A stretch of DNA of 64,000 bases. Origin: Thermoanaerobaculia bacterium. GTDB taxonomy: Bacteria; Acidobacteriota; Thermoanaerobaculia; UBA5066. Below, piece by piece: positions 22,636 through 43,949 of this stretch. The DNA lies in assembly GCA_963719225.1 (NCBI GenBank), contig CAVRAY010000001.1, forward strand, positions 2,112,001 through 2,176,000, in the 5' to 3' direction. The position numbers and the translations under genes were made by a program. The notes under the pieces were generated by a model. That model saw only the letters and a program-made list of their open reading frames with translations, did no database searches and was not told where the DNA came from. Each line of letters starts with the position of its first letter. Position 1 is the stretch's first letter.

Positions 22636-23412
22636 ATGGGATACGAGAACCTCTGCTTCGAGACGGACGGGGCCGTCGCCGTCGTGACCCTGAATCGGCC
22701 CGCGAGGCGAAACGCGCTTTCGCTCGCGCTCATGCGCGAGCTCCTGGACTGTCTGGAACGGATCGGCGAGGACAGGCAGCTCCGCGCGGTCATTCTCGCC
22801 GCCGCCGGAAACGTCTACAGCGCCGGGCACGATCTCGCAGAGCTGACCGGACGAGACATCAACGACACGCGCCGGATCTTCGACGTCTGCGCGGAGCTCA
22901 TGATGAAGATCCAGTCGATTCCGCAGCCGGTCATCGCCGAGGTCCAGGGCCTCGCCACCGCCGCCGGATGCCAGCTCGTGGCGACGTGCGATCTCGCCGT
23001 CGCCGCCGCAGGCGCCCGGTTTGCGACGCCGGGCGTGAAGATCGGGCTCTTCTGCACGACTCCGATGGTCGCCTTGACCCGCGCCATCGGGCGCAAACGC
23101 GCCCTCGGGATGCTCCTGACCGGCGATCCGATCGACGCGGAGACGGCGGCGGACTGGGGGCTCGTCAACGTCGTCGTGCCGGCGGCCGCGCTCCGCGACG
23201 AGACCCGCAAGCTCGCGGCGCGCATCACGGAGGCGAGCCCCGTCACGCTCGCCATCGGGAAGCAGGCCTTTTACTCGCAGATCGACCTCGATCAGCCGAA
23301 GGCGTACGCGTACGCCAAGGAGATCATGTCGATGAATTCCATGGCGGCCGACGCACAGGAAGGGATCTCCGCGTTCCTCGGGAAGAGGGCGGCCGTCTGG
23401 ACGGGAAAATAG
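22636..23412 (+). CDS. Enoyl-CoA hydratase/crotonase family protein
   Basis: LNRPARRNAL, SAGHDL, QPVIAEVQGLATAAGCQL, PGVKIGLFC. Confidence 0.92.
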   Translation: MGYENLCFETDGAVAVVTLNRPARRNALSLALMRELLDCLERIGEDRQLRAVILAAAGNVYSAGHDLAELTGRDINDTRRIFDVCAELMMKIQSIPQPVIAEVQGLATAAGCQLVATCDLAVAAAGARFATPGVKIGLFCTTPMVALTRAIGRKRALGMLLTGDPIDAETAADWGLVNVVVPAAALRDETRKLAARITEASPVTLAIGKQAFYSQIDLDQPKAYAYAKEIMSMNSMAADAQEGISAFLGKRAAVWTGK

Positions 23413-23430
23413 GATCAAGGAGGAAGTCTC

Positions 23431-23736
23431 ATGGTCACGTTCGAATATCGGTTCGATGTTCTCCCGGGAAAGCTGAAGGAGTACGAAAAGTACGTCAAGG
23501 GTCCCGGCAAGGACGTCTGGCTGAAGTTCAAGGGCGTCAGGAGCGTTCGCGTCTACAAGAGCATGCTGGGAGGATCGTCTCCCCAGCGGCTCGTCCAGGT
23601 CGACCTCGAGAGCCTCGCGGCGCTCGAGAACATCCTCACGGACTCGACCTTCCGCAAGCTCAAGCAGACGTTCCACGGCCTCGTCACGCACGTCAGCGAC
23701 TCCCTGCTCACGCAGGTGAGCGACAAGAAGAGGTAG
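23431..23736 (+). CDS. Small hypothetical protein (dimeric alpha+beta barrel/NIPSNAP-like)
   Basis: Strong AAGGAGG Shine-Dalgarno; FDVLPGKLKEYEKY pattern. Confidence 0.7.
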   Translation: MVTFEYRFDVLPGKLKEYEKYVKGPGKDVWLKFKGVRSVRVYKSMLGGSSPQRLVQVDLESLAALENILTDSTFRKLKQTFHGLVTHVSDSLLTQVSDKKR

Positions 23737-23740
23737 GGGC

Positions 23741-24253
23741 CTAGCGGGACGCGACTCGTTTCGGGGCGTCCGCGCGGCGCGGCCGGCGCCCGCCGGAAGA
23801 GAGTGCCTTGATGACGGCGCCCCAGTTGTCGAACCACGTCTCGAAAGCGGTGCGCAGCTGCGCTCTCCCCTGCTCGTCGGCCGCAGTGCGCAGCGCTTCC
23901 ACGACGGCGGCGGTGGACGGGCGAAGGCGGCGCTCTCCGGAGGCCGTCAGCTTCACGTAGACGAAGCGGTGATCCTTCCGGGAGCGCGTCGTGCGGACGA
24001 GGCCGGCGCGCTCCATTCGCCTGACGAGAGCGGAAGTCGTGTTCATCGTGGAAAAGGTCTCGCGCGCCAGATCGCCGATCGTCAGGGGGTCGTCCGAGGG
24101 GTTGCCCGCGAGCGTCAGGAGGGCGAACTGCTGGGCGGGAGTGAGGCCTCCGTTCGTCGGCTCGATCGTGATCGTTCTCCTCACCGACTCGAAGAAACGC
24201 CTGAGGTGCGCCATGGTCCGGTAGGTGTCCCTCAGACTGTGGCGCTCGACCAT
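23741..24253 (-). CDS. MarR family transcriptional regulator
   Basis: GLTPAQQFALL..TIGDLA..LVRRMERAGLV.....KDHR...VKLTASG; divergent from the U32 operon. Confidence 0.85.
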   Translation of the reverse strand: MVERHSLRDTYRTMAHLRRFFESVRRTITIEPTNGGLTPAQQFALLTLAGNPSDDPLTIGDLARETFSTMNTTSALVRRMERAGLVRTTRSRKDHRFVYVKLTASGERRLRPSTAAVVEALRTAADEQGRAQLRTAFETWFDNWGAVIKALSSGGRRPRRADAPKRVASR

Positions 24254-24372
24254 CGCCTGCGATTATAGGGAACGGCCGGCGCCGAGAATCCGCTTGAGAC
24301 GGGGTGCGATCGCAGCCTACAATCACTCGACGCGATGAATAGTCGACGGCACGTAGTATCTGGGTCGCGCTG

Positions 24373-25317
24373 ATGTCGGGGCCGATCCTCCTCGCTCCCG
24401 CTGGAAGTCCGGAGGCCGTCCGAGCCGCGCTCGGCGCCGGAGCGGACGCCGTCTACGTGGGCCTCGAGGGCTGGAGCCGGGGCGGGGCGCGCAGGGAACT
24501 CTCGTGGGACGAGCTCGTGGCGGCGCAGCGCGACGTCGAGTCCGCCGGCCGGACCCTGCAGGTGGCCCTGAACACGATCCCGAAGCCGGACGAGCTCGGG
24601 CGACTTTTCGCGCGCGTCCCGGCGCTGGTGGAGCTGGGGATCCGGGACGTCATCGTGAACGACATCGGAATCCTGTTCGCGCTCAAGCAGCGCTTCGAAG
24701 ACCTCCGGCTGACCGCCAGTATCGGCTGCGGCGCCCAGACGGTCGCCGACGTCGCATTCCTGAGAGACCTGGGCGCGCACGGCGTCGTCCTGCCGGGCAC
24801 GGTGAGTCCCGAGGAGATGCGCGAGATCAGGACGGTCCGGGGGATCTGCGTCGAGATCATGATTCACATGGTCGAGGAGTTCATCCTCCTCGGAAAGTGC
24901 TGGATGCCCAGCTACGTCCATCTCAAGCCGACCTCTGTTCCGGCGCCGTCCGAGACAGCCGTGGGCGAGCCGCCGGAAAGCGCCCTTCGCGGGCCGCGCC
25001 AGACCGGCAGCGTGAAGCGTGGAGGAGTCGGGGCCTGTTTCCGGATCTGCCAGCAGCCCTGGGATCTCTACGACTCCGGCCGGCGCGTCGAGGCGCGGCT
25101 GTTCCCGAGCCGGCAGATCAGCCGGATTCCGGACGTCGAGGCGTACGCCGACGCGGGCGTCGACGTCCTGAAGCTGCAGGGGCGAAGTCTTCCGGTGGAA
25201 ATGCTGGCGCCGCTCGTTCGCCGCTACCGCGACGCCATCGACGCCGGATCGATCTCGCACCCGTTCGAGCCGCCGCCCGCGACCTTGCCGGCGGCGTGGG
25301 CCGTCGTCGGGCGATGA
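24373..25317 (+). CDS. Peptidase U32 family Fe-S protein, copy A
   Basis: LLAPAGS, GADAVYVG, LKLQGR; E-x6-C...C-x3-C. Confidence 0.88.
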   Translation: MSGPILLAPAGSPEAVRAALGAGADAVYVGLEGWSRGGARRELSWDELVAAQRDVESAGRTLQVALNTIPKPDELGRLFARVPALVELGIRDVIVNDIGILFALKQRFEDLRLTASIGCGAQTVADVAFLRDLGAHGVVLPGTVSPEEMREIRTVRGICVEIMIHMVEEFILLGKCWMPSYVHLKPTSVPAPSETAVGEPPESALRGPRQTGSVKRGGVGACFRICQQPWDLYDSGRRVEARLFPSRQISRIPDVEAYADAGVDVLKLQGRSLPVEMLAPLVRRYRDAIDAGSISHPFEPPPATLPAAWAVVGR

Positions 25318-25351
25318 GAATCAGGATGGAGATCGGACGACCAATGGGGCG

Positions 25352-26311
25352 GTGCTCATGAACGGGTTCGAGCTGAACACGACGATTGCAAACCTCAAGG
25401 ACCTTCGGGCCTCGGACCTGAGTGCCTACGACGCGGTGTATCTCGGCGACATCTACTGCCGGCTCTACGAGTCCAACTTCCTCGAGCAGCTCGGCGACCT
25501 CAAGGAGGGGCTCCACATCCTTCGCGAACAGGGGAAGCGGGCATTCGTGACGACGTATGCGGCGCCGCGGAACGACTTCCTGCCGAAGGTCGGGAAGATG
25601 CTGGAAGCTTCCGCCGCCGCGGGGGCCGAGGCGGTGGAGGTCCACAACCTCGGCATCCTGAAGATCGCCCACGAGAATTTTCCGGAGCTGCCGGTGCACG
25701 TCGGCGGGTTCGCGAACATCTACACCGCGTCGGGCGCCGACGTCCTGCGCGGGTTCGGAGCGGTGCGCTTCACGCCGAACTACGAATTGAGCCTGGACGA
25801 GATCAACGAGATCACGGCGACCTGCGGAGCTCCTCTGGAGCTCCTCGTGCACGGAAAGATGCCGCTCGGCGTCTCGGACTACTGCTTCCTCCTGGATTAC
25901 GAGGAGAAGTGGGGCGTCAAGTGCCCCGATCTGTGCCAGAAGGACCTCTTCCTGAAGCAGGGCGACTGGGCGATGAAGTCCCTGGGCAAGGGCATCCTGA
26001 GCGGCAAGGACGTTTGCATGCTCGAGCACTTGCCGCGGCTGATCTCCGAGGGGCACCGGTTCTTCCGCATCGAAGCCCTCTCGGAGACTCCGGACTACCG
26101 CCGCGACGTCGCGGCGGTGTATCGGGCGGCCCTGGAGCGCGCGATCGCCGGCGAGAGCGACGTGGAAGAGGGATCGTGGGCGACGCTCCGGCGCCACGCC
26201 CACGTCGGTCTCTGCAACGGGTTCTACTTCGGCAGGAGCGGAATGGACTACTCGGGGATACGGCCGGAAGCGCTCGGATCTCTTCCGACCATTTCGCGCG
26301 CGGAGTCATAG
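25352..26311 (+). CDS. Peptidase U32 family Fe-S protein, copy B (UbiV-like)
   Basis: VYLGDIYC, ELSLDEI, HGKMPLGVSDYCF, CPDLC, CNGFYFG. Confidence 0.85.
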   Translation: MLMNGFELNTTIANLKDLRASDLSAYDAVYLGDIYCRLYESNFLEQLGDLKEGLHILREQGKRAFVTTYAAPRNDFLPKVGKMLEASAAAGAEAVEVHNLGILKIAHENFPELPVHVGGFANIYTASGADVLRGFGAVRFTPNYELSLDEINEITATCGAPLELLVHGKMPLGVSDYCFLLDYEEKWGVKCPDLCQKDLFLKQGDWAMKSLGKGILSGKDVCMLEHLPRLISEGHRFFRIEALSETPDYRRDVAAVYRAALERAIAGESDVEEGSWATLRRHAHVGLCNGFYFGRSGMDYSGIRPEALGSLPTISRAES

Positions 26312-26331
26312 GCAGGTCAAGGAGGAAGGTC

Positions 26332-27300
26332 ATGGTCGAGCTTCTGGCGCCGGCAGGCAATCTCCCGATGGTCGAAGGAGCCGTCGCGAACGGCGCCAAC
26401 GCCATTTACGTGGGTCCGCGCGGCTGGAGCCGGCGGCGCGACAAATACGAGATGTCCGACGAGGACGTCCGCGCCGCCATCGGCATCGCCCACGCGGGCG
26501 GCGCCAAGCTGCGCGTGGCCTTCAACACGAACATGCAGTCCCACGAGATCGCCCCCATGCTGGAGAAGATGGAGCGTTTCGTGTCCTGGCGCGTGGACGG
26601 AGCGATCATGACCGACATCGGCGCCATCGCCGAGGTCCACCGGAAGTTTCCGCACCTCACGATCCACGCCTCGATCGGAGCGAACATCCTCAACAACGAG
26701 GACGTGAGGTTCTACCGGTCGATCGGCGTTTCCCAGGTGGTCGCCGACACGAAACTGACTCTCCGGGAGCTCGCCTCGCGAAAGGAGAAGATCGACGTCG
26801 GGATCGAAATCCTGATCCACGCGAACAAGTGCTACACGTACCTCGGGAAATGCTGGATGTCTCCCTATCACCGCCTCGAACGCACGACGGACACCTTCGG
26901 GAAGGACCTCTTCAAGGGAAGCCCGAACCGCGGCGGTCTCGATTACCGGGTCTGCCTGGAGTCGTGGGAGCTCTATTCCGGCGACGAGAAATGGGAGGAC
27001 AGCGTGGCGCTGAAGAACGACGCGTTCTTCCTCCTGGAAGACATCCCGCATCTGATCAAGCTCGGCGTCGAGTGCCTGAAGGTGCAGGGACGCGAATACC
27101 CCGTGCCGCTCGTCGAAGGGATGGTGCGCTTCTACAGAGATCTGATCGACGCGTGCCTCGCTTCGGATTCGATCGAAACCTTCGACCTCGCGCCCTGGCG
27201 GACCCGGCTCGCCTCCATCCAGCTGGAGAGGGACACGGCCCGGTCCGACGGAACCCGGCAGCTGCTTCTCGAAGCGCGCCTGCCCCTGCCCGCGCTCTGA
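26332..27300 (+). CDS. Peptidase U32 family Fe-S protein, copy C
   Basis: ATG 26332 after AAGGAGGA; ELLAPAGN, GANAIYVG, HASIGAN, C-x6-C...NRGGLD-x3-C, LKVQGR. Confidence 0.88.
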   Translation: MVELLAPAGNLPMVEGAVANGANAIYVGPRGWSRRRDKYEMSDEDVRAAIGIAHAGGAKLRVAFNTNMQSHEIAPMLEKMERFVSWRVDGAIMTDIGAIAEVHRKFPHLTIHASIGANILNNEDVRFYRSIGVSQVVADTKLTLRELASRKEKIDVGIEILIHANKCYTYLGKCWMSPYHRLERTTDTFGKDLFKGSPNRGGLDYRVCLESWELYSGDEKWEDSVALKNDAFFLLEDIPHLIKLGVECLKVQGREYPVPLVEGMVRFYRDLIDACLASDSIETFDLAPWRTRLASIQLERDTARSDGTRQLLLEARLPLPAL

Positions 27301-27385
27301 GCACCGGCGCGGTCCGACCGTGAAGGTCCCGCGCTCCCTCGCGGTCGCGTCTTTCGTGGCGTCGGGAGCGGCCCGCCGCTCGCCT

Positions 27386-28525
27386 CTACTTCTGGAACCA
27401 GTATTGACGCGTCAAGTCCAGGAGTCGCTCGGCCACCTGCCGGTTGCGATGCGAGATCTCGTAACGGTTCGGAATGTCGGCATGGGACGGATCCGGATCG
27501 TGGAGAGTGCGCGGGAGCTCGTCCTGAGAAATGTGGCTCCACCTCCCGCGCCAGGCCTCCGGAAGGTCCCGCGCCACGGGCAGTTCGTGCAGCACGAGAT
27601 GAAGAATGGCCCACACGCGCGGCGTCGCGCGGACGGAGTACCCGCCTCCCAGCGTGAACAGGACCCGGCCCTCGGTGAACTCGTCCGCCCAGCCCAGGAT
27701 TCGCCGGAAGATGGCCTCGTAGTCGCGGGTCGTCAGCATGAGATCCGAGAGCGGATCGTCGAAATGCGCGTCCGCGCCGGCCTGGACCACGAGGACGTCG
27801 GGGCGAAAGTGCCGCAGGGCAGGCGGGATCACCTGCTCAAAAACCTCCAGGTAGCTTCCGCCTTCGGTGAACGGCTCCAGCGGCAGGTTGAGCTTCAGGC
27901 CCCGGCCCGCTCCCGAGCCGAGCTCGCGGATCTCTCCGGTTCCCGGGAACAGGTACTTGCCCGATTCGTGAAGGCTCACGGTCAGGACGCGCGGATCTTC
28001 GTAGAGGATCTCCTGGACGCCGTCGGCGTGATGGACGTCGACGTCGAGATAGGCGACTTTCAGCCCGCTTCGGGTGAGAAAGGTGATCGCGATCGCGAGA
28101 TCGTTGTAGATGCAGAAGCCCGAGGCGAACCTGCGGCGAGCGTGATGAAGGCCTCCGCCGAGCTGGAGGACGCGCTTCTCCCTCCCCTCCGAGAGCAGCC
28201 GCGCGCCGTGCAACGTACCTCCGACGAGCCACCGGGCCGCCTCGTCCATTCCAAGGAACGAGGGAGTGTCCTGCGTTCCGAGACCGTACTCCTGACCGTC
28301 GGGAACCGGTGCACCCGCGCTCAGGCTTTCCACCCGATCGACGTAAGCGGCCTCGTGCACGCCGAGGAGGTCCTCCCGCGTCGCCGGCTTCGGTTCGACC
28401 GTCTCGACGCGGTGTCCGAGCGCGCTGACGAGGTCGAGCATCATGTCGGTGCGGATCGGGCTGAAGGGATGCTCGTCGCCGAAGGAGTACTTCCGGTATG
28501 CCGAAGCGTAGATCACCGAGGGCAC
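27386..28525 (-). CDS. acuC: AcuC-type Zn-dependent protein deacetylase
   Basis: HPFSPIR, GGGLHHA, GFCIYND, DVDVHHADG, GADAH, GGGY; start is GTG 28525 or 28516. Confidence 0.9.
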   Translation of the reverse strand: MPSVIYASAYRKYSFGDEHPFSPIRTDMMLDLVSALGHRVETVEPKPATREDLLGVHEAAYVDRVESLSAGAPVPDGQEYGLGTQDTPSFLGMDEAARWLVGGTLHGARLLSEGREKRVLQLGGGLHHARRRFASGFCIYNDLAIAITFLTRSGLKVAYLDVDVHHADGVQEILYEDPRVLTVSLHESGKYLFPGTGEIRELGSGAGRGLKLNLPLEPFTEGGSYLEVFEQVIPPALRHFRPDVLVVQAGADAHFDDPLSDLMLTTRDYEAIFRRILGWADEFTEGRVLFTLGGGYSVRATPRVWAILHLVLHELPVARDLPEAWRGRWSHISQDELPRTLHDPDPSHADIPNRYEISHRNRQVAERLLDLTRQYWFQK

Positions 28526-29142
28526 GGCTTCTCCGGCGGCCAGAGGACCTCGAAACCGGCACGGCGCAGTTCTTCGGCGAGCAGCCTCGTCTCGATCGAG
28601 CCGACACGCAGGACGGTTCGGACCGAATCGGGCCCGTCGGGATAGGTCAGGATCGAATGGACGTTCAGGTGCCGGTGGCTGACGAAGGCCGTGAGCCGCG
28701 CGAGCTCGCCGGGATGGTCGGGAAGCCGCACTTCCAGGCGGCCGGAGGGCTTGTGCACACCCGTGAGGCGCATCAGCGCGTCCAGGAGATCGAGTCCCGT
28801 GACGATCCCGATCAGCTTCCCGTCCTCCAGCACCGGCAGGCACCCGATCTTCCTCTCCCGCATCGTGCGCGCCGCGTCCTCGACGGGATCCGAGGGGTCG
28901 GCGGTCAGCGGTGCCGTCGACATGACCGCCGAGACGCGGCTGTCGGGTGAGAACGGCGACGGGACGAGCGCGCTCGTCGCGAGCCTCAGGTCGCGATCCG
29001 TGACCACCCCGACGAGGTTCTCACTCTCGACGACCGGCAGGTGCCGGATGCCTCTTTCGCGCATGGTCCGGTAGGCGTCCTGGAGCGTCGTGCTGGCCGG
29101 AATGGAAACGGCCGGGCTCCGCATGATGTCTCGAATCAACAT
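28513..29142 (-). CDS. acuB: AcuB-type CBS-CBS-ACT protein
   Basis: IRHLPVV..GVVTDRDL, KIGCLPV, ACT LPDHPGEL; overlaps acuC. Confidence 0.85.
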   Translation of the reverse strand: MLIRDIMRSPAVSIPASTTLQDAYRTMRERGIRHLPVVESENLVGVVTDRDLRLATSALVPSPFSPDSRVSAVMSTAPLTADPSDPVEDAARTMRERKIGCLPVLEDGKLIGIVTGLDLLDALMRLTGVHKPSGRLEVRLPDHPGELARLTAFVSHRHLNVHSILTYPDGPDSVRTVLRVGSIETRLLAEELRRAGFEVLWPPEKPCPR

Positions 29143-29174
29143 GACCCACCTCGAAATTCACGATTCCTCGAACG

Positions 29175-29810
29175 TCATTCCAGAAAATCAGAGAGGTCCG
29201 GGACGATGAAGCCCGCGTCCTTGAGAGACTTTTTCACCGCCGCGACGTCGATCGTCGAAAGCCGGACGAAGGCCACGAATCCCTCCCCCATGGGCGACAG
29301 GATCAGGCTCCGGATCTCGCTCTTCAGCTCCCCGAGCTTGCGCACGAGGTGCATGAGCGAGGCGACCTCACGGGGGAGCAGCACTTCGATTCTCACACCC
29401 GGTTCCTCGATCCTGAGGGTCTCGCAGAACGCCGCCAGGACGTCCGCCTTCGTGATGATCCCCACCAGCTTCTTCCCCTCCACGACCGGCAGGGCGCCGA
29501 GCCTCCGCTTGTGAAAGATCAGGAGAGCGTCCTCCACGGTATCCCAGGGACTGACCGTGATGACGTCGCGCGTCATGACCTCCTCCACGGTCTTGTTCTT
29601 CACGAGGATCTTGCCGAGCTGCGTAACGGTCGACGTCTCGAACGTCGAATTGCGTATGTCGGTACCCGAGACGAAGCCGACGAGCTCTCCACGCTCGACG
29701 ACGGGAAGCTGATGAATGCGGTTCTCGTGCAGGAGATTGCTCGCGAACTTCAATGTGTCTCCCCGCGAGACCGTGATCACGTTTCGTGTCATCCTTTTTC
29801 CAACGAACAT
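29175..29810 (-). CDS. AcuB-like CBS-CBS-ACT protein
   Basis: ATG 29810 (MFVGKRMTR); IHQLPVV, LGALPVV..GIITKADV, C-terminal ACT-like domain. Confidence 0.85.
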   Translation of the reverse strand: MFVGKRMTRNVITVSRGDTLKFASNLLHENRIHQLPVVERGELVGFVSGTDIRNSTFETSTVTQLGKILVKNKTVEEVMTRDVITVSPWDTVEDALLIFHKRRLGALPVVEGKKLVGIITKADVLAAFCETLRIEEPGVRIEVLLPREVASLMHLVRKLGELKSEIRSLILSPMGEGFVAFVRLSTIDVAAVKKSLKDAGFIVPDLSDFLE

Positions 29811-31681: not shown

Positions 31682-31753
31682 CGGGAGACGAGTCTAGCCG
31701 CTGGCGGCATCCCCACGGGATAGACTTCCCCGGTTACGATCTCGAGGAGCGAC

Positions 31754-33784: not shown

Positions 33785-33880
33785 AGAGGAGATTCTCTTA
33801 GAAGGTGAGGGGACTGTCGGACGCCCGACAAACGCCCCAGCGGGTCATGGGCCCCAGCGACACTCACCCTTCTAAGAAGG
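33785..33880. repeat. Intergenic inverted pair of the motif between convergent genes
   Basis: GAGATTCTCTTAGAAGGTGAG versus CTCACCCTTCTAAGAA (core 33870-33878). Confidence 0.6.
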
Positions 33881-34666: not shown

Positions 34667-34673
34667 CGGGCCG

Positions 34674-35084
34674 TCAGGCCTTCGGTCCGCGGCGCGCCGC
34701 GCCCGCGACGAGCCTCTCGGTCGTGACGACGGCCCGCTTGTGCGTGCAGCGGCCGATCTCCCCCGCGTCATCCGTGGCGAGGATCTCGAACACGAAGAGC
34801 TTTCCCTCGCGTCCGAGGAACTTCGCGGTGGCCGAGACAGTGGCGCCCACGGGGGTGGCCGCGGTGTGGACGACGTCGAGGGTGACGCCGACCGAGAGCT
34901 CGCCCGGACGAAGGTGCGGCCGGAGAAGGCGCGCCGCCGCGAGCTCCATGAGAGCCACCATGCGGGACGTCGCGAAGACGGCCGGAAACGCGTCCTCGGG
35001 CTCGAGGTTGAGGGCGCTGGCGAGGTCGGAAGGCGCAACGACGAAGTGCGCCGAGGCGGTCGAGTCGGCTTCGGGTTCGCTCAT
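34674..35084 (-). CDS. Hotdog-fold thioesterase (FlK fluoroacetyl-CoA thioesterase-like)
   Basis: VFATSRMVALMELAA, SVG..DVVHTAATPVG, HKRAVV. Confidence 0.85.
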   Translation of the reverse strand: MSEPEADSTASAHFVVAPSDLASALNLEPEDAFPAVFATSRMVALMELAAARLLRPHLRPGELSVGVTLDVVHTAATPVGATVSATAKFLGREGKLFVFEILATDDAGEIGRCTHKRAVVTTERLVAGAARRGPKA

Positions 35085-36943: not shown

Positions 36944-36947
36944 CGGG

Positions 36948-37325
36948 TCACCCTTCGTTCCTGGCCAGGTCGGCCAGGGCTTTTTCACATCCGACGAGGC
37001 CGCCCCGCGCCTGATCCTGCCTCGGGTAGGCATCGGTGGGGTAACGGTCCTTGGGGTCGCCGAAGACGAGAACGGCCGGCGTCACGCGGCCGAAGTCGGG
37101 CTCGAGCGCCCCCTTCATGCCGAAGACCGCCCGGACCGTGGCGGGTGGACCCGTCAGTGCCGAGTGGTAAAAGCGAAACACGTCCGGCACTCCTGAGACG
37201 TCGATCGCCTCGGCGTCGACACCCTTGGCCTTCAGCTCCTTGACTTTTTCCAAGGCGGCCGCCACGTTGCACGGGTACTGCTCGCCTGGCTTGTCCTTGG
37301 TGGAATAGTAGAACTTGACTTTCAT
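36948..37325 (-). CDS. Hypothetical protein, possibly thioredoxin-like fold
   Basis: ATG 37325 after AGGAG; KVKFYY..C..EAIDV..VTPAVLVF; in operon. Confidence 0.7.
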   Translation of the reverse strand: MKVKFYYSTKDKPGEQYPCNVAAALEKVKELKAKGVDAEAIDVSGVPDVFRFYHSALTGPPATVRAVFGMKGALEPDFGRVTPAVLVFGDPKDRYPTDAYPRQDQARGGLVGCEKALADLARNEG

Positions 37326-37336
37326 TGTGTCTCCTC

Positions 37337-37720
37337 TCAGACATCCATGGGGCAGTTCACCTGCCATTCCGTCTCGAAGTACGCGTCCCCAAGCCACTCG
37401 TGGATGTGGACGCGATGCTCCTCCAGAATCGTAAAATCCTCACCTAACTCGAGGCACACGATGGAACGAGCCTCGGCGTCGAAGTAGCGAAGGGCATACC
37501 GGCCGGCTTCGACCCGAGGGGCATCGATGAGACGAAGCCCCTCGAAGCCGAAACCGATCTTGTGCATCACCACTTCGAGCTCGTAAGTGACGTCTCCGAC
37601 GACGAGACACGAGGCGCCGGACCCGAGCTGTCCGTACCGCTTCTCGAACTCCTCCCGGAGGCTCGCCACGAAATTTTCCTGCTGTCTTACGCTTTCTTCT
37701 TGATCGGGGGCTTCGGACAC
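37337..37720 (-). CDS. Hypothetical acidic protein, paralog of 21402-21734
   Basis: GTG 37720 after GGAGG; RYGQLGSG..IDA..RYFD..EWLGD..CPMDV. Confidence 0.75.
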   Translation of the reverse strand: MSEAPDQEESVRQQENFVASLREEFEKRYGQLGSGASCLVVGDVTYELEVVMHKIGFGFEGLRLIDAPRVEAGRYALRYFDAEARSIVCLELGEDFTILEEHRVHIHEWLGDAYFETEWQVNCPMDV

Positions 37721-37881
37721 TCGCCCTCCAGGCCGCCGATCGGAACCATCACGGTGAAGGGCCACTCGCGGGCCTTGCAGTACCCGAGGTATGCCCGCAG
37801 GATGTTCGGATCCAGCGCCGCCTCGAAATACTCGCAGCACTTGTAGGTCGACCCTTCTTTCTTCTTTTCGGTCTCTGCCAC
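37687..37881 (-). CDS. Small 4-Cys hypothetical protein (64 aa)
   Basis: GTG after AGGAG; YKCCEYF..GYCK..ECP; tightly packed in operon. Confidence 0.68.
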   Translation of the reverse strand: MAETEKKKEGSTYKCCEYFEAALDPNILRAYLGYCKAREWPFTVMVPIGGLEGECPKPPIKKKA

Positions 37882-37897
37882 GGCTGTTTCTCCTTCC

Positions 37898-38296
37898 TCA
37901 GGCCTTGTGCTGGTCCACGATGAACCGAGGGCGGCTTCCGATCAGATCTTCTTTCTTGAGCGGACTGCCGCTGACCGGCTTTCCCCTGAGGCTCTGCTTG
38001 ATGTGTTTCTGCTTTCCGCTGAAGGGATCGGGCCGCGCCTGCGGTGCCGGCCGGATCTTGTCACTGGTGATGGGGGTACCGGCCTTGTCCTCGGCGTAAC
38101 CCGGCAGCAGATCGGCCTTCCCGGAGCCTGCCGTCGGTCCGCTCGTGAGCTGGCCCTTGGCGAACGTCACGGCATAGATCGTGTCGCAAGTCGCGCATTT
38201 CGTATTGCCGCTGAAGTTCCAGAACGGGTACGGGTCCAGGAAATTCTTGGTGGAGCACTTGGCGCACGTGAGCACCAGGCCCTGATTGATGGCCAT
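37898..38296 (-). CDS. Zn-ribbon/rubredoxin-like hypothetical protein
   Basis: CAKC-x19-CATC; starts 1 bp after the CoA-transferase stop, with a GGAGG Shine-Dalgarno. Confidence 0.78.
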   Translation of the reverse strand: MAINQGLVLTCAKCSTKNFLDPYPFWNFSGNTKCATCDTIYAVTFAKGQLTSGPTAGSGKADLLPGYAEDKAGTPITSDKIRPAPQARPDPFSGKQKHIKQSLRGKPVSGSPLKKEDLIGSRPRFIVDQHKA

Positions 38297-38297
38297 C

Positions 38298-39641
38298 TCA
38301 GATCACCTCCATCTCTTCCATCTTCGCGAGCTTCGCCTTCGACCACCCGAGAAGCCGGCCGTAAACCCTCTCGTTATCGGCGCCCACGGGCTTCAGCGCC
38401 CACTTGAGGCGGGGAGGCGTCTCGGACATCTTGAAGGCAGGCCCCTGATGGTGGAGGTCGCCGTAAATCGGGTCGTCGTACCACTGGACCGCGCCGCGCA
38501 TCTTCCAGTGGTCATTCTCCGACACTTCCTTGGCGTTCCAGACCGGCTGGTTGTTGATTCCCGCCTTGTCGAGGAGCTTGGCAACGTCTTCCTTGGTCTT
38601 GTCCTTCGCCCAGGCCTCGATGGCCTCGTAGACGGTGCCCTGGTTCTCGGCCTTGACGCGGTCGTCGTGCTTCGCGAACTTCGTGGCGAGGTCCTTCGCC
38701 CCGATCACGTCGCAGAGCTTCTTGAAGTCCTCGTCCGTGTGGGCCGTGACGAGGCAATAACCCACCTCGGCCTCTTGAGGATTCTTGGAGTCCGGATAGG
38801 ACGACTTGCCGCACTGGATGATCCCGTGCGCGCAGAGCTCCGTGTCCCAGTTGCCCCAGCGCTCGCGGCGAACGCCGTAGCGGCCGTAGAGAGGCAGCGA
38901 ATACTCGAGAAGCCTCTGGACGCCGTGCACCTGGGAGTACTCGATGAACGTGCCCTTGCCCGAGACCGTGTCCCGATAGTAAAGCGCCGCGAGGATCGTG
39001 ACGGCGGCCATCATGCCGCCCCAGTAGTCCGCGAGCCAGATCGTGTGCTTCGCAGGCGTTCCACCCCGGTCGGCGGCTTCACCCGTGATCCCGAACGCTC
39101 CGCCCATGGCCTGACCCAGGATGTCGTAGGACGCCCGGACGCGCCCCGGGCCCCACCCGCCGAAACCGCCGAGCCACTGGTAGATGAGGCGCGGGTTGAC
39201 CTTGGAGAGATGCTGGTAGCCCATCCCCCACCGGTCGAAAGTTCCGGGCCGGAAGTTCTGGACGAAGACGTCCGCCTTGGACGCCAGCTCCAGCATCGCG
39301 GCCTTCGCCTCCGGGCGGTGGAAGTCGAGCGTGATGAACTCCTCGTTCGTGTTCGCCCCGAAGAAACCGAGGCCCGTCCCTGCTTCCGGCACCCAGCGGG
39401 AGAGCGGGAAGAGGAGCGGCTCGTTGAACGGGGTCGTGTGGCGCATCGGCTCGCCGCGCCGAGGCGTCTCGATCTTGATGACCTCGGCTCCCAGCTCGGC
39501 CAGGTAGGCCGCGCAGGAGGGACCGAGGATGTATTGAGTGCAGGAGAGGACGCGAGTGCCCTTCAGGACTTCCGGCTTGCCGGACGCCGTCTTGTGGTCG
39601 AAGAGCTGCTGACAATAGGTTTCGAAGTCGGGTGTTGCCAT
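38298..39641 (-). CDS. Family III (CaiB/BaiF) CoA-transferase, subunit/paralog 2
   Basis: LAELGAEVIKIE..GEPMR, DVFVQNFRPG, NPRLIY, WLADYWGG (catalytic Asp position), GKGTFIE. Confidence 0.9.
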   Translation of the reverse strand: MATPDFETYCQQLFDHKTASGKPEVLKGTRVLSCTQYILGPSCAAYLAELGAEVIKIETPRRGEPMRHTTPFNEPLLFPLSRWVPEAGTGLGFFGANTNEEFITLDFHRPEAKAAMLELASKADVFVQNFRPGTFDRWGMGYQHLSKVNPRLIYQWLGGFGGWGPGRVRASYDILGQAMGGAFGITGEAADRGGTPAKHTIWLADYWGGMMAAVTILAALYYRDTVSGKGTFIEYSQVHGVQRLLEYSLPLYGRYGVRRERWGNWDTELCAHGIIQCGKSSYPDSKNPQEAEVGYCLVTAHTDEDFKKLCDVIGAKDLATKFAKHDDRVKAENQGTVYEAIEAWAKDKTKEDVAKLLDKAGINNQPVWNAKEVSENDHWKMRGAVQWYDDPIYGDLHHQGPAFKMSETPPRLKWALKPVGADNERVYGRLLGWSKAKLAKMEEMEVI

Positions 39642-39661
39642 CGTCTGTGCCTCCTAATTCC

Positions 39662-41077
39662 CTAGACCACGCCGCGCTTCTTGAGCTGCGCGAGATCCGA
39701 TGGCCCGATTCCAAGTAGACGCAGGAAGATCTCCCCGTTGTCGTAGCCGAGCGGCCGGCCGATCCACTTCAGCCGCCCCGGACACTCGCTGGCGAGCGCC
39801 GGGCTCGTGCCGTAGAGGACCTTCCCGTAGAGTCGGTCCTCGATCTCGTCGACGTGCCCGCGGTACTTGAAATGCGGGTCCTCGGCGACTTCGTCGATGT
39901 AATTGACGCCGCCGGACGCGACCTGCTGGGCCAGCAGGTGGTGCATGGCGTCAGCCCGCGAGTGGTCCTTCTGCCAGTCGGCGAGGACGGTGTAGGTCTT
40001 CACCTGGCGAAGATGCGGGAGCCTCGCCGTGACGGCGCGCAGGGACTTGTCGTCGAGAATCTCGTCCTCGAGGTCGGGTCGTGTCTGGCCCACCGTCCGC
40101 CAGATCCGGTACCAGAGGCGATCGTGTCCACCGCCCACCATGAAATAGCCGTCCTTGCAGGGATTGACGGCATAGATGTTGATCGCGAGGTCCCAGTTCC
40201 CGTAGCGCGGGCGGATGCTGCCGTCGAACCCGTACCAGCCCCAGTTGTAGTCGAGGATGCGGATGATCCCTTCGGCTGCCGTCGCCTCGATGAACTGACC
40301 CTTGCCCGAAACCTTGTCGCGGTAGAGGAGCGCGGCCAGGATTCCGATCGCCGCGGCGGTCCCGCCGACCTGGTCCGCCACCCAGAGCGCCGAGCGGGTC
40401 GGCCGTCCGCCGAATTCCTTCGGGAGGCCCGTGCCGTGGACGAACCCGCAAGCCGCCTGTGCCGTCGGGTCGAGGTTGCCCGGCTTGTCCTTGGACGGAC
40501 CCCACTGCCCCTTCTGCCCGACCCAGCAGTAGACGAGACGCGGGTTGATCTCCTTCAGCTGCCGGTAGCCGATGCCCCACGCGTCGAACTGCCCCGGCGG
40601 GTAATTCTCGATGAGAACGTCGCAGTGAACCGCCAGCTTCTTGAGGAGCTCGCGGCCCTCTTCCTTTTCGAGATTGAGGGTGATGGACTGCTTGTTCCTC
40701 ATCTCGTGGAGGAAGTGGAGGCCGATCGGCTCGCCGGTCTCGGCGTCCTTGAACATGTACTCCTTGCGGCCGAACGGTGTCTGCCACCTGAGCGGGTCGC
40801 CATCGGGCGGCTCGCACTTGATGGTGTCGGCGCCGAGCTCAGAGAGCATCGAGGAGGCCCAGTTGCCGATGATCATTCCCTTGCTCAGGTCGAGAACCCG
40901 AACCGTCGTCAGGTTCTCGGGCTTCTTGAAGTTCTCGGACTGCCTGAGATCTTTTTCGAGGGATAGGGGATATTCCTTGGCCTGGTCCGTCATCCCGGCG
41001 TAGACCTCGTCGGGTGTCGGGATCGGAACCGCCGGCCACGGCAGGACTTTGTGCTTTGGATACGTGGAATCAGCCAT
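39662..41077 (-). CDS. Family III (CaiB/BaiF) CoA-transferase, subunit/paralog 1
   Basis: LSELGADTIKCEPPDGDPLR, RNKQSITLNL, DVLIENYPPG, WVADQVGG, GKGQFIE. Confidence 0.9.
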   Translation of the reverse strand: MADSTYPKHKVLPWPAVPIPTPDEVYAGMTDQAKEYPLSLEKDLRQSENFKKPENLTTVRVLDLSKGMIIGNWASSMLSELGADTIKCEPPDGDPLRWQTPFGRKEYMFKDAETGEPIGLHFLHEMRNKQSITLNLEKEEGRELLKKLAVHCDVLIENYPPGQFDAWGIGYRQLKEINPRLVYCWVGQKGQWGPSKDKPGNLDPTAQAACGFVHGTGLPKEFGGRPTRSALWVADQVGGTAAAIGILAALLYRDKVSGKGQFIEATAAEGIIRILDYNWGWYGFDGSIRPRYGNWDLAINIYAVNPCKDGYFMVGGGHDRLWYRIWRTVGQTRPDLEDEILDDKSLRAVTARLPHLRQVKTYTVLADWQKDHSRADAMHHLLAQQVASGGVNYIDEVAEDPHFKYRGHVDEIEDRLYGKVLYGTSPALASECPGRLKWIGRPLGYDNGEIFLRLLGIGPSDLAQLKKRGVV

Positions 41078-41129
41078 TCTCTTCTCCTGTGGTTTATCGA
41101 AAAGCGTTCCGTGTCACGATCTGTGCCCG

Positions 41130-42392
41130 CTACGCGCGCGCCGACGCCGGCGGCGACGGCCGCCGCGCCAGGAACTCGGCGATAAGCGCGACCACCGCCA
41201 GCACAGCGGCCGTGTAGAAAGCTGCCTGGTAGTTCTTGTACTTGTCGAAGAGCACGCCGCCGATCCTCGGTCCGATGAAGCCCGCGACGCCCCAGGCGGT
41301 GAACAGAATGCCGTAGTTGATGCCGACGTTCTTCGTCCCCCAGAAGTCGGCGGTCGTGGAGGCGTTCACAGAAAGCTGCGTGCCGTAGCACCAGTAGACG
41401 ATGAACACCATGATGTAGAGCATCGCGACGTTGCTGCCGGTGAGGTAGAGAATGGGCATGGAAATGGCCGAAATGGCGATCATCAGGCGCAAGACGTTGA
41501 GGCGACCCATGGCGTCGGACATCCAGCCTGACAGGATTCGACCGGAGGCGTTGCCTGCTGCGCCGATGACGAGTCCGATGACGGGGAGAGCCGACCCGGG
41601 AATCCCCTCGCTCTTGGCGAACGGGATCAGCTGGCTGATGACCATGAGGCCGGCGGCGCAGCCCAGGCAGTAGGCGATCCACATGAAATACGCCGCAGGG
41701 GTTTTCCACATCTCGCCGGGGGTGAACTCGTACGTCGTCGCCAGGGACTTCGGTTTCGACGCCGGCACCCAGCCCGGCACCGTGTACCCGGCCGGAGGGT
41801 TCTTCAGCAGGAACGCTCCGACGAGGGTCATCACGAAGAAGATGACGCCGAGGATGGCGAACGTGGCGCGCCACCCGTACGTCGGGATCAGCCAAAGGTT
41901 GGCGAGCGGCCCGAAGATCGCCGAGCCGCCGCCGTAGCCGGCGACGGCAAGGCCGACGGCCAGACCGCGCTTGTCCGGGAACCATTTCGACATGACGGGG
42001 ATCGGCGTCGCGTAGCCGAATCCGTTACCGATGCCGACGAGGATTCCGAAGCAGACGATCAGGTACCCGAGGCTGCTCGTCCACATGCAAAGGATGAAGC
42101 CCGTAGTCAGGAGGATGCAGCCGATGAGCGAGACCATGAAGGGACCCAGCTTGTCCTGGAGGCGTCCGGCGACTATGAAGGCGATGGCAAAAACCACGAC
42201 GGCCCACGTGAACACGGCGGACGTGTCCGCTCGCTTCCAGCCGAACTCCTTTTCCAGAGGCGCCACGAAGACGCTCCAGGCGTAGAGCGAGCCCAGGGCC
42301 AGATTCATCAGGAGCCCGCCCACCACGCGCCACCATCGATTCAACCCGACATCCACGGCAGCGGCCCCCGGGCTTGCAGCAGCACTTGACAT
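41130..42392 (-). CDS. OFA/monocarboxylate family MFS transporter
   Basis: GSLYAWSVF, KWFPDKRGLA, GLMVISQ, NASGRILSG, FWGTKNVGINYG; about 12 TM segments. Confidence 0.9.
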   Translation of the reverse strand: MSSAAASPGAAAVDVGLNRWWRVVGGLLMNLALGSLYAWSVFVAPLEKEFGWKRADTSAVFTWAVVVFAIAFIVAGRLQDKLGPFMVSLIGCILLTTGFILCMWTSSLGYLIVCFGILVGIGNGFGYATPIPVMSKWFPDKRGLAVGLAVAGYGGGSAIFGPLANLWLIPTYGWRATFAILGVIFFVMTLVGAFLLKNPPAGYTVPGWVPASKPKSLATTYEFTPGEMWKTPAAYFMWIAYCLGCAAGLMVISQLIPFAKSEGIPGSALPVIGLVIGAAGNASGRILSGWMSDAMGRLNVLRLMIAISAISMPILYLTGSNVAMLYIMVFIVYWCYGTQLSVNASTTADFWGTKNVGINYGILFTAWGVAGFIGPRIGGVLFDKYKNYQAAFYTAAVLAVVALIAEFLARRPSPPASARA

Positions 42393-42711
42393 ACTAGAGC
42401 CTCCCTTCCTTTCGGTTCATGGCGTTCCAGAAACTGGGGAACGACGACGATCTTGTCTTAGTCTCCTTTTTCAGTTCGATCCAGCTTTTTGTGTCGCGTT
42501 AACGCAAAAGAATAAGAGCGCGCCCTGCGCGTCGAGACGGCCGGCCCGAACCTCACGACGGCCGGGTCGCCGCTACGCAATCGCGCGGAGCGGACTCCAA
42601 ATCCTGAATTCATGGCAAACAAGACTGGGCGCGAGTCTTTCACTCTGGCGTTTTAAGTCAAGTGCAAAGACCGGCTCGGGGTTAGTGCAGATGCATCACC
42701 TCGGTACGGAA

Positions 42712-42749
42712 GATTCCTGTTGACGCGGAATCCACCTAGTGACTATCGT
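42712..42749 (+). promoter_or_regulatory. Putative porin promoter with overlapping palindrome
   Basis: TTGACG (42720)-18 bp-TATCGT (42744); GATTCC-N9-GGAATC (42712-42732) spans the -35 box. Confidence 0.5.
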
Positions 42750-42812
42750 TTTCTCCATAAGATGCGCTTCAGTGTTGCCGCTCATCGGCGTGCTGACTTG
42801 AAGGAGGATGGT

Positions 42813-43949
42813 GTGCGTTCAAGGATTCTTTCGAATCGATTGACCCTCGTCTCCGTGGCTCTGCTCGTCCTGCTGCTGCCGGCCGTCGCGAATGCGCAGG
42901 CCATCGTCAAGGTGAACGACGTCGTGAACTTCCGGCTCGGCATCCTGCTGCAAGCCTGGGGCGACTGGAACGGCCAGTCCACTGCCACGGGCGATACGGC
43001 CGGCTTCCAGCAGAACCTGTTCCTGCGCCGAGCGCGCTTCTTCCTCGGCGGGCAGGTGGCGAAGGACGTCACGTTCTTCTTCATGACCGACAACCCGAAC
43101 CTCGGGAAGTCGACCCAAACGGTGGCGGGCGGCGCGGGCGGCAAAGCGCCCGGCACGGGGTTCATCGTTCAGGACGCGTTCTTGTCCTGGAAGGTCGCGA
43201 ACGAGTTCAGCCTCCAGGGAGGCCTGATCCTCATTCCGCTCTGCCGCAACTGCAACTCGAGCGCCGTGAGCCTCGTGACGATGGACTACGGGACCTGGTC
43301 GTTCCAGGAGAGCGGCTCGACGCAGTCGTCGGTCGGGCGCGATACCGGGTTCCAGGCCCTGGGCTACTTCGCGGGTGACCATCTCGAGTACCGAGCCGGC
43401 GTCTACTCCGGCTTCCGGGCTCCCGGCGTGAAGAACTCCTTCCGGTTCACGGGGCGCCTCCAGTACAACGTGTTCGACGTGGAGAAAGGCCAGTTCTACG
43501 CGGGCACGTACTTCGGCAAGAAGAAGATCCTCGCGATCGGCGGCAGCTACGACGTGCAGAGCGACTACAGCGCGTACGCCGGCGACGTCTTCTTCGACTA
43601 TCCCGTCGGCGACAACGGCATCACGGTGCAGGGCGACTTCATTCACTATGACGGCGGCGTCACGTTCAACACCGCGGCGCTCTTGAAGCAGGACGACATC
43701 TACGCCGAGGCTGGGTTCTTCATCAAATCGCTCAAGCTCATGCCGTTCGTGCGGTACGAGCAGCAGGAGTACTCGGACGACGTGAACAAGGGGCTCAACA
43801 GGCAGAAGTTCCAGGGGGGCTTCGGCTGGTACCCCTACATGTCGAACTTCAACATCAAGGCCGGGTTCACGCGCACGGAGGCTCCAGACAACAAGAACGT
43901 GGCCTCGACGAACCAGTACACGATCCAGGTTCAGGTCTTCTACTACTAA
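42813..43949 (+). CDS. Outer-membrane porin (OprO/OprP/FmdC-like)
   Basis: GTG after AAGGAGGA; signal peptide ..ANA-Q; FLRRARF, GRDTG, amphipathic beta strands, C-terminal aromatic residues (QVFYY). Confidence 0.82.
   Translation: MRSRILSNRLTLVSVALLVLLLPAVANAQAIVKVNDVVNFRLGILLQAWGDWNGQSTATGDTAGFQQNLFLRRARFFLGGQVAKDVTFFFMTDNPNLGKSTQTVAGGAGGKAPGTGFIVQDAFLSWKVANEFSLQGGLILIPLCRNCNSSAVSLVTMDYGTWSFQESGSTQSSVGRDTGFQALGYFAGDHLEYRAGVYSGFRAPGVKNSFRFTGRLQYNVFDVEKGQFYAGTYFGKKKILAIGGSYDVQSDYSAYAGDVFFDYPVGDNGITVQGDFIHYDGGVTFNTAALLKQDDIYAEAGFFIKSLKLMPFVRYEQQEYSDDVNKGLNRQKFQGGFGWYPYMSNFNIKAGFTRTEAPDNKNVASTNQYTIQVQVFYY

What the first reader, a model, noticed from the sequence alone, without database searches (positions are those of the whole stretch)
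22636..43949. Candidate undescribed anaerobic carboxylate/acyl-CoA pathway: triple U32 Fe-S proteins, paired family III CoA-transferases and unknown small proteins
Seen: one block encodes uptake (porin, monocarboxylate MFS), CoA activation and transfer (AMP-forming ligase, ADP-forming ligase, two family III CoA-transferases), a thioesterase, a crotonase, four co-operonic unknown Cys-containing proteins and three tandem U32 genes under a MarR regulator. Established: characterised U32 proteins (RlhA, TrhP, UbiU/UbiV) are [4Fe-4S], prephenate-dependent, O2-independent hydroxylation factors acting on RNA or ubiquinone precursors. No UbiT, UbiA or RNA-modification context is adjacent here. Inference: U32 chemistry may be repurposed for a small-molecule CoA-thioester substrate, or for maturing the small proteins or transferases. 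I know of no described pathway with this composition.
Basis: partly seen in the sequence, partly recalled or inferred. Interest (0 to 1): 0.88.

Follow-up and report, generated by a model that had tools for sequence, protein, structure and literature searches.

The report
Acid-oxidising pathway with three U32 proteins
Uncultured soil bacteria share a gene cluster with transporters, a CoA ligase, a predicted three-part CoA-transferase and three iron-sulfur U32 proteins, which likely take up an unknown organic acid and hydroxylate it without oxygen, a job not yet described for this enzyme family.

Summary
The genes are there, and the cluster extends left to 16207. It holds two conserved modules. 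(1) Two family III CoA-transferases, a Zn-ribbon protein, a Cys-rich/thioredoxin-fold pair and an aryl-type CoA ligase, kept in order in 69-78 of 80 related loci. The Zn-ribbon protein is predicted to be a third transferase subunit (0.86, best control 0.00). (2) A U32 trio, sister to UbiU/UbiV but outside them, two members with one Cys ligand replaced by Glu or Asp. The trio occurs in at least 37 of 80 genomes with module 1, against 3 of 351 sampled from the phylum, but each module also occurs alone. An O2-using R2lox-type oxidase occurs in 10 of 50 cluster genomes (0 of 201 background), mostly those lacking the trio. Best reading (0.45): inducible uptake, CoA activation and O2-independent hydroxylation of an unknown, probably aromatic, acid. 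No substrate or activity is shown, and no downstream ring-cleavage route was found. Not found in print in six searches. This scan noted both modules before on other DNA; the predicted third subunit and the R2lox link were not in the notes I saw.

The parts
16207..17067 (-).
   Evidence: PF04909; in 29 of 80 related loci
17115..19943 (+). GNAT + NDP-forming-ligase-fold protein (Pat-like acetyltransferase by domain order; name recalled)
   Evidence: Pfam; conserved beside the trio
19939..20391 (+). stand-alone PAS protein
   Evidence: Pfam; 48 of 80 loci
20393..21130 (+). alpha/beta hydrolase 1 (GxSLG)
   Evidence: Pfam; 48 of 80 loci; motif
21181..21405 (+). DUF4177-like small protein
   Evidence: Pfam (below cut-off); 45 of 80 loci
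21402..21734 (+). unknown protein B, paralog (39%) of 37337-37669
   Evidence: model pLDDT 86, best Z 5.1, no clear fold match
22636..23412 (+). crotonase, PRK08139 type
   Evidence: NF006008 above cut-off
23431..23736 (+). small unknown protein (dimeric alpha+beta barrel by my reading of the sequence, not tested)
   Evidence: no Pfam hit; conserved
23741..24253 (-). MarR regulator, divergent from the trio
   Evidence: PF12802
24294..24359 (+). sigma-70-like promoter (TTGAGA..TACAAT) and a conserved imperfect inverted repeat just behind it, candidate operator
   Evidence: conserved in aligned upstream regions of relatives (output partly cut)
24373..25317 (+). U32a, UbiU-sister clade, E-x6-C ... 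C-x3-C
25352..26311 (+). U32b, UbiV-sister clade, C-xn-C-x12-C-x3-C
26332..27300 (+). U32c, paralog of U32a, C-x6-C ... D-x3-C
27386..31681 (-). acetylation-control unit: deacetylase with N-terminal extension, two CBS proteins, AcuC-like deacetylase; lineage-restricted
   Evidence: Pfam; in 1-5 of 80 loci within 10 kb of the Zn-ribbon gene, beside the trio in close relatives
31754..33784 (+). ADP-forming acyl-CoA ligase (alpha+beta fused)
   Evidence: 12 of 80 loci
33872..34680 (-). alpha/beta hydrolase 2 (start approximate)
   Evidence: Pfam; 10 of 80 loci
34674..35084 (-). FlK-type hotdog thioesterase
   Evidence: PF22636; FlK-like gene in 32 of 80 loci
35276..36943 (-). AMP-forming CoA ligase of the aryl/medium-chain group
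   Evidence: best PDB match anthranilate-CoA ligase 4wv3, E 2e-77; 69 of 80 loci
36948..37325 (-). sD, thioredoxin-fold domain with one conserved Cys; fused to sB in most other lineages
   Evidence: fold search Z 6.3, rmsd 3.4, 87 aligned to thioredoxin 6mos
37337..37669 (-). sC, unknown protein B family
37687..37881 (-). sB, Cys-rich 64-residue protein
   Evidence: 77 of 80 loci
37898..38296 (-). sA, CxxC..CxxC Zn-ribbon protein, predicted third subunit of the transferase
   Evidence: 231 homologs; alignment; complex prediction
38298..39641 (-). family III CoA-transferase CT2, catalytic Asp kept
   Evidence: PF02515; Asp in 75 of 76
39662..41077 (-). family III CoA-transferase CT1, catalytic Asp kept
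   Evidence: PF02515; Asp in 67 of 67
41130..42392 (-). SfMCT-type monocarboxylate MFS transporter
   Evidence: NF049980 above cut-off; 6g9x E 3.5e-68; 29 of 80 loci
42720..43949 (+). porin, divergent
   Evidence: NF040900 below cut-off; 10 of 80 loci

Best explanation
The cluster is likely an inducible pathway that imports a small organic acid, attaches it to coenzyme A and hydroxylates it without oxygen. Shown: the gene set, its conservation and the residues named below. Predicted by a structure model: CT1, CT2 and the Zn-ribbon protein form one transferase complex. Inferred: the ligase primes the acid with ATP; the transferase passes CoA from product to incoming acid through its aspartate; U32a, b and c form a UbiU-UbiV-like Fe-S complex with a duplicated U subunit whose Glu/Asp-ligated clusters bind substrate or prephenate; the Cys-rich/thioredoxin-fold pair carries electrons; the thioesterase or ADP-forming ligase frees the product; the acetyltransferase and deacetylases switch the ligase. 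The acid is more likely a benzoate-sized aromatic acid than an aliphatic one (about 55:45, my estimate). An R2lox-type oxidase in relatives would do a comparable step with O2.
For: Core order CT1-CT2-sA-sB-sD-ligase: CT1 73, CT2 78, sB 77, sD 74, ligase 69 of 80 loci. Trio within 10 kb in 13 of 80 loci, elsewhere in 24 of 50 further genomes, 13-41 kb away on the same contig in 10 of 11 genomes measured; background 3 of 351. In a second phylum 23 of 42 genomes with CT2 have U32c against 12 of 177 without (two unpublished genomes left out). Three different arrangements (window; L034-type, trio upstream; L166/L236-type, trio behind the ligase under IclR). Trees: a/c clade sister to UbiU, b clade sister to UbiV; UbiU-UbiV is a heterodimer with one 4Fe-4S each (PMC6747719) and uses prephenate (PMC10990095). 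Complex score 0.86, best of 3 controls 0.00; mark reached by 116 of 157 solved and 2 of 215 mismatched pairs; runs agree in at least 93% of contacts, partner pLDDT at least 87. Ligase closest to anthranilate- and benzoate-CoA ligases and has Gly where acetate ligases have Trp. DAHP synthase/chorismate mutase fusion beside the trio in 6 of 13 loci. R2lox-type gene in 10 of 50 cluster genomes, 0 of 201 background, metal-ligand motifs intact in 13 of 13 full copies.
Against: No substrate, activity or U32-transferase contact is shown. The operon exists without the trio in 26 of 50 genomes, among them near-complete ones (G190, G273), and 14 of 23 trio-less genomes have no R2lox either. Divergent trios stand without the operon (13 of 17 genomes with only 37-43% hits have no CT2); G403, G404 and G466 have the trio without CT2. 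In G027 the modules are 1.9 Mb apart. The ligase pocket differs from benzoate ligases (Tyr to Gly/Ala, His to Tyr). Neighbouring channels point to small aliphatic acids. No benzoyl-CoA reductase family gene in the genome; true BoxB in only 1 of 42 relatives; no acyl-CoA dehydrogenase or thiolase among the conserved neighbours I listed. The six chorismate-mutase loci are close kin (CT2 91-98% alike). R2lox and trio sit side by side in L050, L056, L079, L084 and others, and within Terriglobia-type genomes the exclusion is not significant (8 of 16 against 1 of 5, p 0.34). Kin are not independent, so all tallies overstate.
Confidence: 0.45

Rival explanations
1. The trio is a separate O2-independent hydroxylase for RNA, a quinone or another cofactor and only travels on the same island as the CoA module.
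For: All characterised U32 proteins act on RNA or ubiquinone (PMC11574389). Own regulator and promoter. Stand-alone trios (L081-L086, L227-L231, L239). A four-gene sister cluster with a different neighbourhood (L223, L232, L241).
Against: Adjacency recurs in three arrangements and two phyla; 3 of 351 background. No U32_C or DUF3656 domain hit, no SCP2 protein in the genome. MarR or IclR control suits an inducible substrate (inference).
Confidence: 0.2
2. The substrate is a short aliphatic monocarboxylate (propionate, lactate, glycolate, a branched or halogenated acid), and the trio and R2lox oxidise its CoA ester at an sp3 carbon or serve as electron carriers.
For: SfMCT-type MFS here, SatP-type acetate channel before CT1 in L022, FNT channel before the trio in L224 and L226, haloacid dehalogenase in 13 and citrate synthase in 10 of 80 loci, AcuB/AcuC-like control, ADP-forming ligase, FlK thioesterase.
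Against: The ligase lacks the Trp wall of acetate ligases and ranks aryl ligases first; U32 precedent is ring C-H hydroxylation.
Confidence: 0.2
3. The cluster is biosynthetic or maturing: it builds a small hydroxylated metabolite or cofactor for export, or the U32 proteins modify the small proteins or transferases.
For: No downstream catabolic route found; ligase, crotonase, hydrolase, thioesterase and hydroxylase folds also make up menaquinone and ubiquinone synthesis (own knowledge).
Against: Importer-type genes recur (porin, TonB receptor in 18 and Liv-type ABC in 11 of 80 loci); the operon persists without the trio, so its proteins do not need U32 maturation; no precursor-like peptide seen.
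Confidence: 0.15

Closest known systems
UbiU-UbiV (E. coli), O2-independent prephenate-dependent ubiquinone hydroxylase (PMC6747719, PMC10990095)
   Same: PF01136 fold; U32b has the UbiV-type Cys pattern; trees place a/c next to UbiU and b next to UbiV; tandem genes.
   Different: 22-30% identity; three genes, not two; Glu or Asp replaces one Cys in a and c; no UbiT/SCP2; CoA-metabolism neighbours.
PepU32#6 of Kimura et al. 2017 (PMC5727448, Table S2), function unknown
   Same: The table lists four near-consecutive Methylomirabilis oxyfera proteins with one gap as PepU32#6; the sister cluster L223 has that pattern and nests in the a/c and b clades. Pelosi 2019 notes poor Cys conservation in this group.
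   Different: I could not compare the listed sequences. The sister cluster has four genes, other Cys spacing, a binding protein and a PEP-utilising enzyme, and no CoA genes.
TrhP, TrhP1/TrhP2 and RlhA, RNA hydroxylation factors (PMC6599085, PMC5727448)
   Same: PF01136; conserved Glu eight residues before the first ligand; B. subtilis needs two tandem paralogs.
   Different: Separate clades; canonical CX6C..CX3C absent; no C-terminal accessory domain hit.
BbsEF, succinyl-CoA:benzylsuccinate CoA-transferase (PDB 9fn0), and other family III transferases
   Same: Two different PF02515 subunits encoded in tandem; catalytic Asp.
   Different: Distant (E 2e-26; all NCBIfam models far below cut-off); both subunits keep Asp; a third Zn-ribbon subunit is predicted, for which I know no precedent (own knowledge; searches showed none).
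Anthranilate- and benzoate-CoA ligases (PDB 4wv3, 2v7b, 4eat)
   Same: Best structural relatives; Gly at the acetate-ligase Trp position.
   Different: Pocket residues changed (F-F-A/T-Y/F-G to L/F/M-A/G-G/A-G; H-I-F to Y-V-F); TIGR02262 288 bits, cut-off 375.
[quoted passage not shown]
   Same: Gene in relatives' clusters matches NF006200 (E 5e-37) with GEERV, DExRH twice and YHLxVEG motifs.
   Different: Below the model's cut-off (128 of 194 bits); absent from this genome.

Membership tests
Peptidase U32 family (PF01136) | Pfam domain above cut-off | tested here: met
   89, 125, 125 bits against 22.4
UbiU/UbiV | NCBIfam equivalog score; place inside the UbiU or UbiV clade | tested here: not met
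   88-121 of 440 and 78 of 275 bits; sister, not nested (quick trees, two reference sequences each)
UbiU/UbiV | four-Cys ligand set | tested here: inconclusive
   met for U32b (UbiV pattern; 70 of 89 matched the strict spacing); U32a has Glu in 77 of 78, U32c Asp in 120 of 120
UbiU/UbiV | ubiT (SCP2) partner and ubiquinone pathway context | tested here: not met
   no PF02036 in the genome, 97% complete; futalosine-type genes present
UbiU/UbiV | heteromer with 4Fe-4S clusters, prephenate dependence | not testable with these tools
TrhP / RlhA | clade, CX6CX15CX3C and accessory C-terminal domain | tested here: not met
PepU32#6 | clade membership in the Kimura tree | tested here: inconclusive
   only gene pattern and table rows compared; listed sequences not fetched
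Family III CoA-transferases | PF02515 domain and catalytic Asp | tested here: met
Family III CoA-transferases | CoA transfer activity | not testable with these tools
   the fold also holds racemases
Formyl-CoA transferase / oxalate system | Frc score, OxlT-type transporter, oxalyl-CoA decarboxylase neighbour | tested here: not met
   190 of 442 bits; MFS 201 of 335 for the oxalate antiporter and above cut-off for SfMCT; no decarboxylase among neighbours
Benzoate/anthranilate-CoA ligases | family score and pocket residues | tested here: inconclusive
   nearest relatives, but below cut-off and pocket changed
Thioredoxin fold (sD) | structural match | tested here: inconclusive
   most of the top 50 rows are thioredoxin-fold, best Z 6.4 and 6.3, under the tool's mark of 8; no CxxC
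R2lox (relatives only) | six metal ligands and the Val/Tyr crosslink pair (positions recalled) | tested here: met
   motifs in 13 of 13 full copies; family score below cut-off

The most novel reading that the evidence does not exclude
A three-subunit U32 enzyme with carboxylate-ligated Fe-S clusters uses prephenate to hydroxylate a soluble acyl-CoA in catabolism, fed by a heterotrimeric Zn-ribbon CoA-transferase, and R2lox is its O2-dependent counterpart, so that one pathway gives the first soluble substrate for U32 chemistry and a physiological substrate for R2lox.
Probability: 0.25. Interest if true: 0.9.

Novelty: new variant of a known kind. Interest (0 to 1): 0.7.

Why it matters
Direct catalysis by any U32 hydroxylase has not been shown, partly because the known substrates are RNA or hydrophobic quinones (PMC10990095, PMC11574389, PMC6747719, passages). 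A U32 complex tied to a ligase that makes a soluble CoA ester would make the mechanism testable in vitro, and would add a route for activating an organic acid without O2 or molybdenum in soil bacteria. The R2lox neighbour may point to the substrate class of an oxidase whose physiological role is open (own knowledge). A third subunit on a family III transferase would be a new architecture.

Tried and rejected
Literature searches showed no description of this cluster (listings only; the library lacks most subscription papers); 137 was for R2lox. PDB sequence search with U32c: 0 hits; with the sA profile only a weak zinc-finger hit, E 0.23. Pfam scan of the sB-sD alignment: nothing significant. 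Atlas: only own clusters, thioredoxin lead at 0.79; unknown protein B under 0.9. The sB part of the fusion model is below pLDDT 50. Benzoyl-CoA funnel: no HGD-D gene; the BoxB on contig 2 lies among genes that look foreign in a genome with 6.2% contamination (inference). No exact FNR or CRP box; only two-mismatch matches. Oxalate pathway rejected (membership test). The Amidohydro_2 protein as a PtmU3/AibH2-type oxygenase: it has a DxHxH start, not tested further. One search used a wrong accession and tells nothing. RNA libraries: four runs of three studies hold contigs mostly 85-99% alike over the operon and parts of the U32 genes; contigs show presence only and the runs were found with the operon, so I draw no expression claim. 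The MarR query was the antisense frame: positions hold, strands are flipped. The careful tree did not finish (one search is the quick one); one search dropped 19 rows (5 distant, 14 redundant) and added 10.
Full report
Observation. The nearest related loci are labelled Thermoanaerobaculia, so the host is probably of that class. The block consists of several transcription units on both strands. MarR is on the minus strand and faces only the U32 trio across 119 bp with a conserved promoter and inverted repeat. The trio are the only PF01136 genes in the genome. A PIN/Phd toxin-antitoxin pair (21778-22454) is an insertion absent from the same place in L087, L089 and L091.

Module 1. The 132-residue Zn-ribbon protein sA has 231 homologs. 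A scan of GTDB genomes found 115 relatives and kept 80 loci, labelled Thermoanaerobaculia, Terriglobia, Rokubacteria/Methylomirabilota and single Chloroflexota, Dormiibacterota, Gemmataceae, Acidithiobacillales and Alphaproteobacteria bins (single labels may be binning errors). CT1 is found in 73, CT2 in 78, sB in 77, sD in 74 and the ligase in 69 of 80, in the same order; many misses are contig ends, but L065 shows no ligase behind sD. sB and sD are one protein in Terriglobia and Rokubacteria loci. Further recurring genes, of 80: PAS 48, hydrolase 48, unknown protein B in 47 (downstream type) and 22 (sC type), DUF4177 45, FlK-like 32, MFS 29, amidohydrolase 29, ABM protein 22. Both transferases keep the Asp that aligns with the family's catalytic one (67 of 67, 75 of 76). 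A model of CT1, CT2 and sA scored 0.86 against a best control of 0.00; the mark was reached by 116 of 157 solved and 2 of 215 mismatched pairs, counts that hold only roughly for three chains with my own alignments; runs agreed in at least 93% of contacts, partner pLDDT at least 87; sA touches both chains and the score fell to 0.00 when CT1 was replaced. This supports binding and does not show it. sD is probably a thioredoxin fold with one conserved Cys (Z 6.3, rmsd 3.4, 87 residues). Unknown protein B folds with confidence but has no clear match.

Module 2. U32c has C-x6-C and D-x3-C in 120 of 120 listed homologs (these are 72-92% alike). U32a has Glu at the first ligand in 77 of 78 and C-x3-C in 76 of 78; U32b has the upstream Cys in 89 of 89 and C-x12-C-x3-C in 70 of 89 by a strict pattern, the UbiV arrangement described in PMC6747719 (passages and section 15). 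Identity to E. coli UbiU, UbiV, TrhP and RlhA is 22-28%. Two quick trees (55 and 46 rows) give an a/c clade (99) and a b clade; the second puts a/c beside UbiU (95) and b beside UbiV (83). The closest named group is probably PepU32#6, by gene pattern only (supplement rows of PMC5727448).

Are the modules linked? The trio lies within 10 kb of sA in 13 of 80 loci, upstream and on the same strand. I searched 50 of the other 67 genomes: 24 hold U32c at 73% or more, so at least 37 of 80; 17 were not searched. Among 351 well-assembled genomes of the phylum, U32c is in 3 and CT2 in 4, both in 2, this genome included; the U32-only genome has the left cassette on a short contig (L087). In 10 of 11 genomes measured the modules are 13-41 kb apart on one contig, in G027 1.9 Mb. 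In the phylum of G045, leaving out two unpublished genomes, 35 of 219 have U32c at 65% or more, 42 have CT2, 23 both. There the trio follows the ligase behind an IclR gene (L236-L238, L166). A metagenome scan kept 80 of 250 loci, many short: U32b in 74, U32a in 61, ligase-like gene in 18, sA in 11, CT2 in 8. Against a strict link: 26 of 50 operon genomes show no full ortholog; six Terriglobia or Rokubacteria trios stand apart from the operon (L081-L086); 13 of 17 genomes with only a 37-43% hit lack CT2, and six such trios have a third subunit with all four Cys and no CoA genes nearby (L227-L231, L239); L224 and L226 keep ligase, an FNT channel and the trio without transferases. Kin are not independent. 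The trio is a frequent accessory, not an obligatory part.

An O2-using neighbour. An R2lox-like gene (NF006200, E 5e-37, below cut-off) lies in the cluster in L037, L041, L053 and L075 without a trio nearby, and beside U32c in L050, L056, L079, L084, L163 and L169-L173. It is in 10 of 50 cluster genomes and 0 of 201 background genomes; in 9 of 23 without and 1 of 27 with the trio (p 0.003, inflated by lineage; within Terriglobia-type genomes 8 of 16 and 1 of 5, p 0.34). It is absent here. R2lox uses O2 for C-H activation (PMC10401708, passage). E. coli pairs O2-dependent and prephenate-dependent routes for ubiquinone and ho5U (PMC10990095, PMC6599085, passages). I infer that the pathway has an oxidative step that either enzyme type may serve; 14 of 23 trio-less genomes have neither, so the step may be optional or served by a third enzyme.

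Substrate. The ligase ranks anthranilate-CoA ligase first (E 2e-77), then an acetyl-CoA synthetase and benzoate ligases; it has Gly where the acetate enzyme has Trp, and a pocket changed against benzoate ligases, conserved in type across 50 homologs; the C-terminal Lys motif is kept in 49 of 50, a likely target of the acetyltransferase and deacetylases (own knowledge). A paralog of hydrolase 2 lies beside boxB and a benzoate-type ligase on contig 2. A DAHP synthase/chorismate mutase fusion adjoins the trio in six related loci; this genome has chorismate mutase elsewhere. These favour an aromatic acid. SfMCT, SatP and FNT transporters, haloacid dehalogenase and citrate synthase neighbours favour a short aliphatic acid. 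No reductase or BoxB route is generally present, so the fate of the product is unexplained.

Novelty. Six literature searches listed no account of this cluster; I read passages of six papers, one section, and rows of one supplement; bioRxiv supplements and most subscription papers were out of reach. Earlier notes of this scan describe the transferase module (two) and the trio with a similar hypothesis (three) on other DNA; I met them after reaching my reading, and they are not independent evidence. The enzymes are variants of known kinds; the pathway is undescribed. Verdict: real, conserved, mechanism inferred; best reading 0.45, interest 0.7.

Noticed in passing
L223:6296-15868 (also L232, L241): Four-gene U32 sister cluster (one V-like, three U-like with C-x3-C..C-x3-C) with an NMT1-type binding protein, a PPDK_N/PEP-utilising enzyme and an aminotransferase; pattern like the four M. 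oxyfera PepU32#6 entries.
   Followed up: partly
L227-L231, L239; L222:9171-10136: Rokubacteria-type trios whose third subunit is 38-41% alike and has all four Cys; in L222 that gene alone stands directly before CT1.
   Followed up: partly
L236:810-7049, L167, L138, L142, L168, L222, L238: In Methylomirabilota-type loci the cluster carries further unknown genes: a 450-460 aa protein, a TPR protein, a CxxC..CxxC 80-87 aa protein, a TusA-like protein, and genes that look E2-like and ubiquitin-like to me (no Pfam hit).
   Followed up: partly
L234:7984-11503: A more distant CT1-CT2-sA set (48, 48, 39%) behind an IclR gene, with unknown genes after it.
   Followed up: no
L069:177-6016: Four family III transferases in a row around sA.
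   Followed up: no
   Followed up: no
window 21778-22454: PIN/Phd toxin-antitoxin pair inserted into the conserved operon.
   Followed up: partly
window 12007-13452 and 9140-10669: Two aldehyde dehydrogenases; a related ALDH type recurs in 12 of 80 loci, at 61-67% to the L040 copy inside some clusters but only about 35% for the window's copy.
   Followed up: partly
G000 C2:803148-810754: boxB, a benzoate-type ligase and a hydrolase-2 paralog among genes that look foreign to this genome; possibly contamination.
   Followed up: partly
window 44642-48514 and 56442-63055: LigD-like genes (by my reading) and, at the right end, a third CBS protein and a Liv-type ABC transporter like those found in other copies of the cluster.
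   Followed up: no
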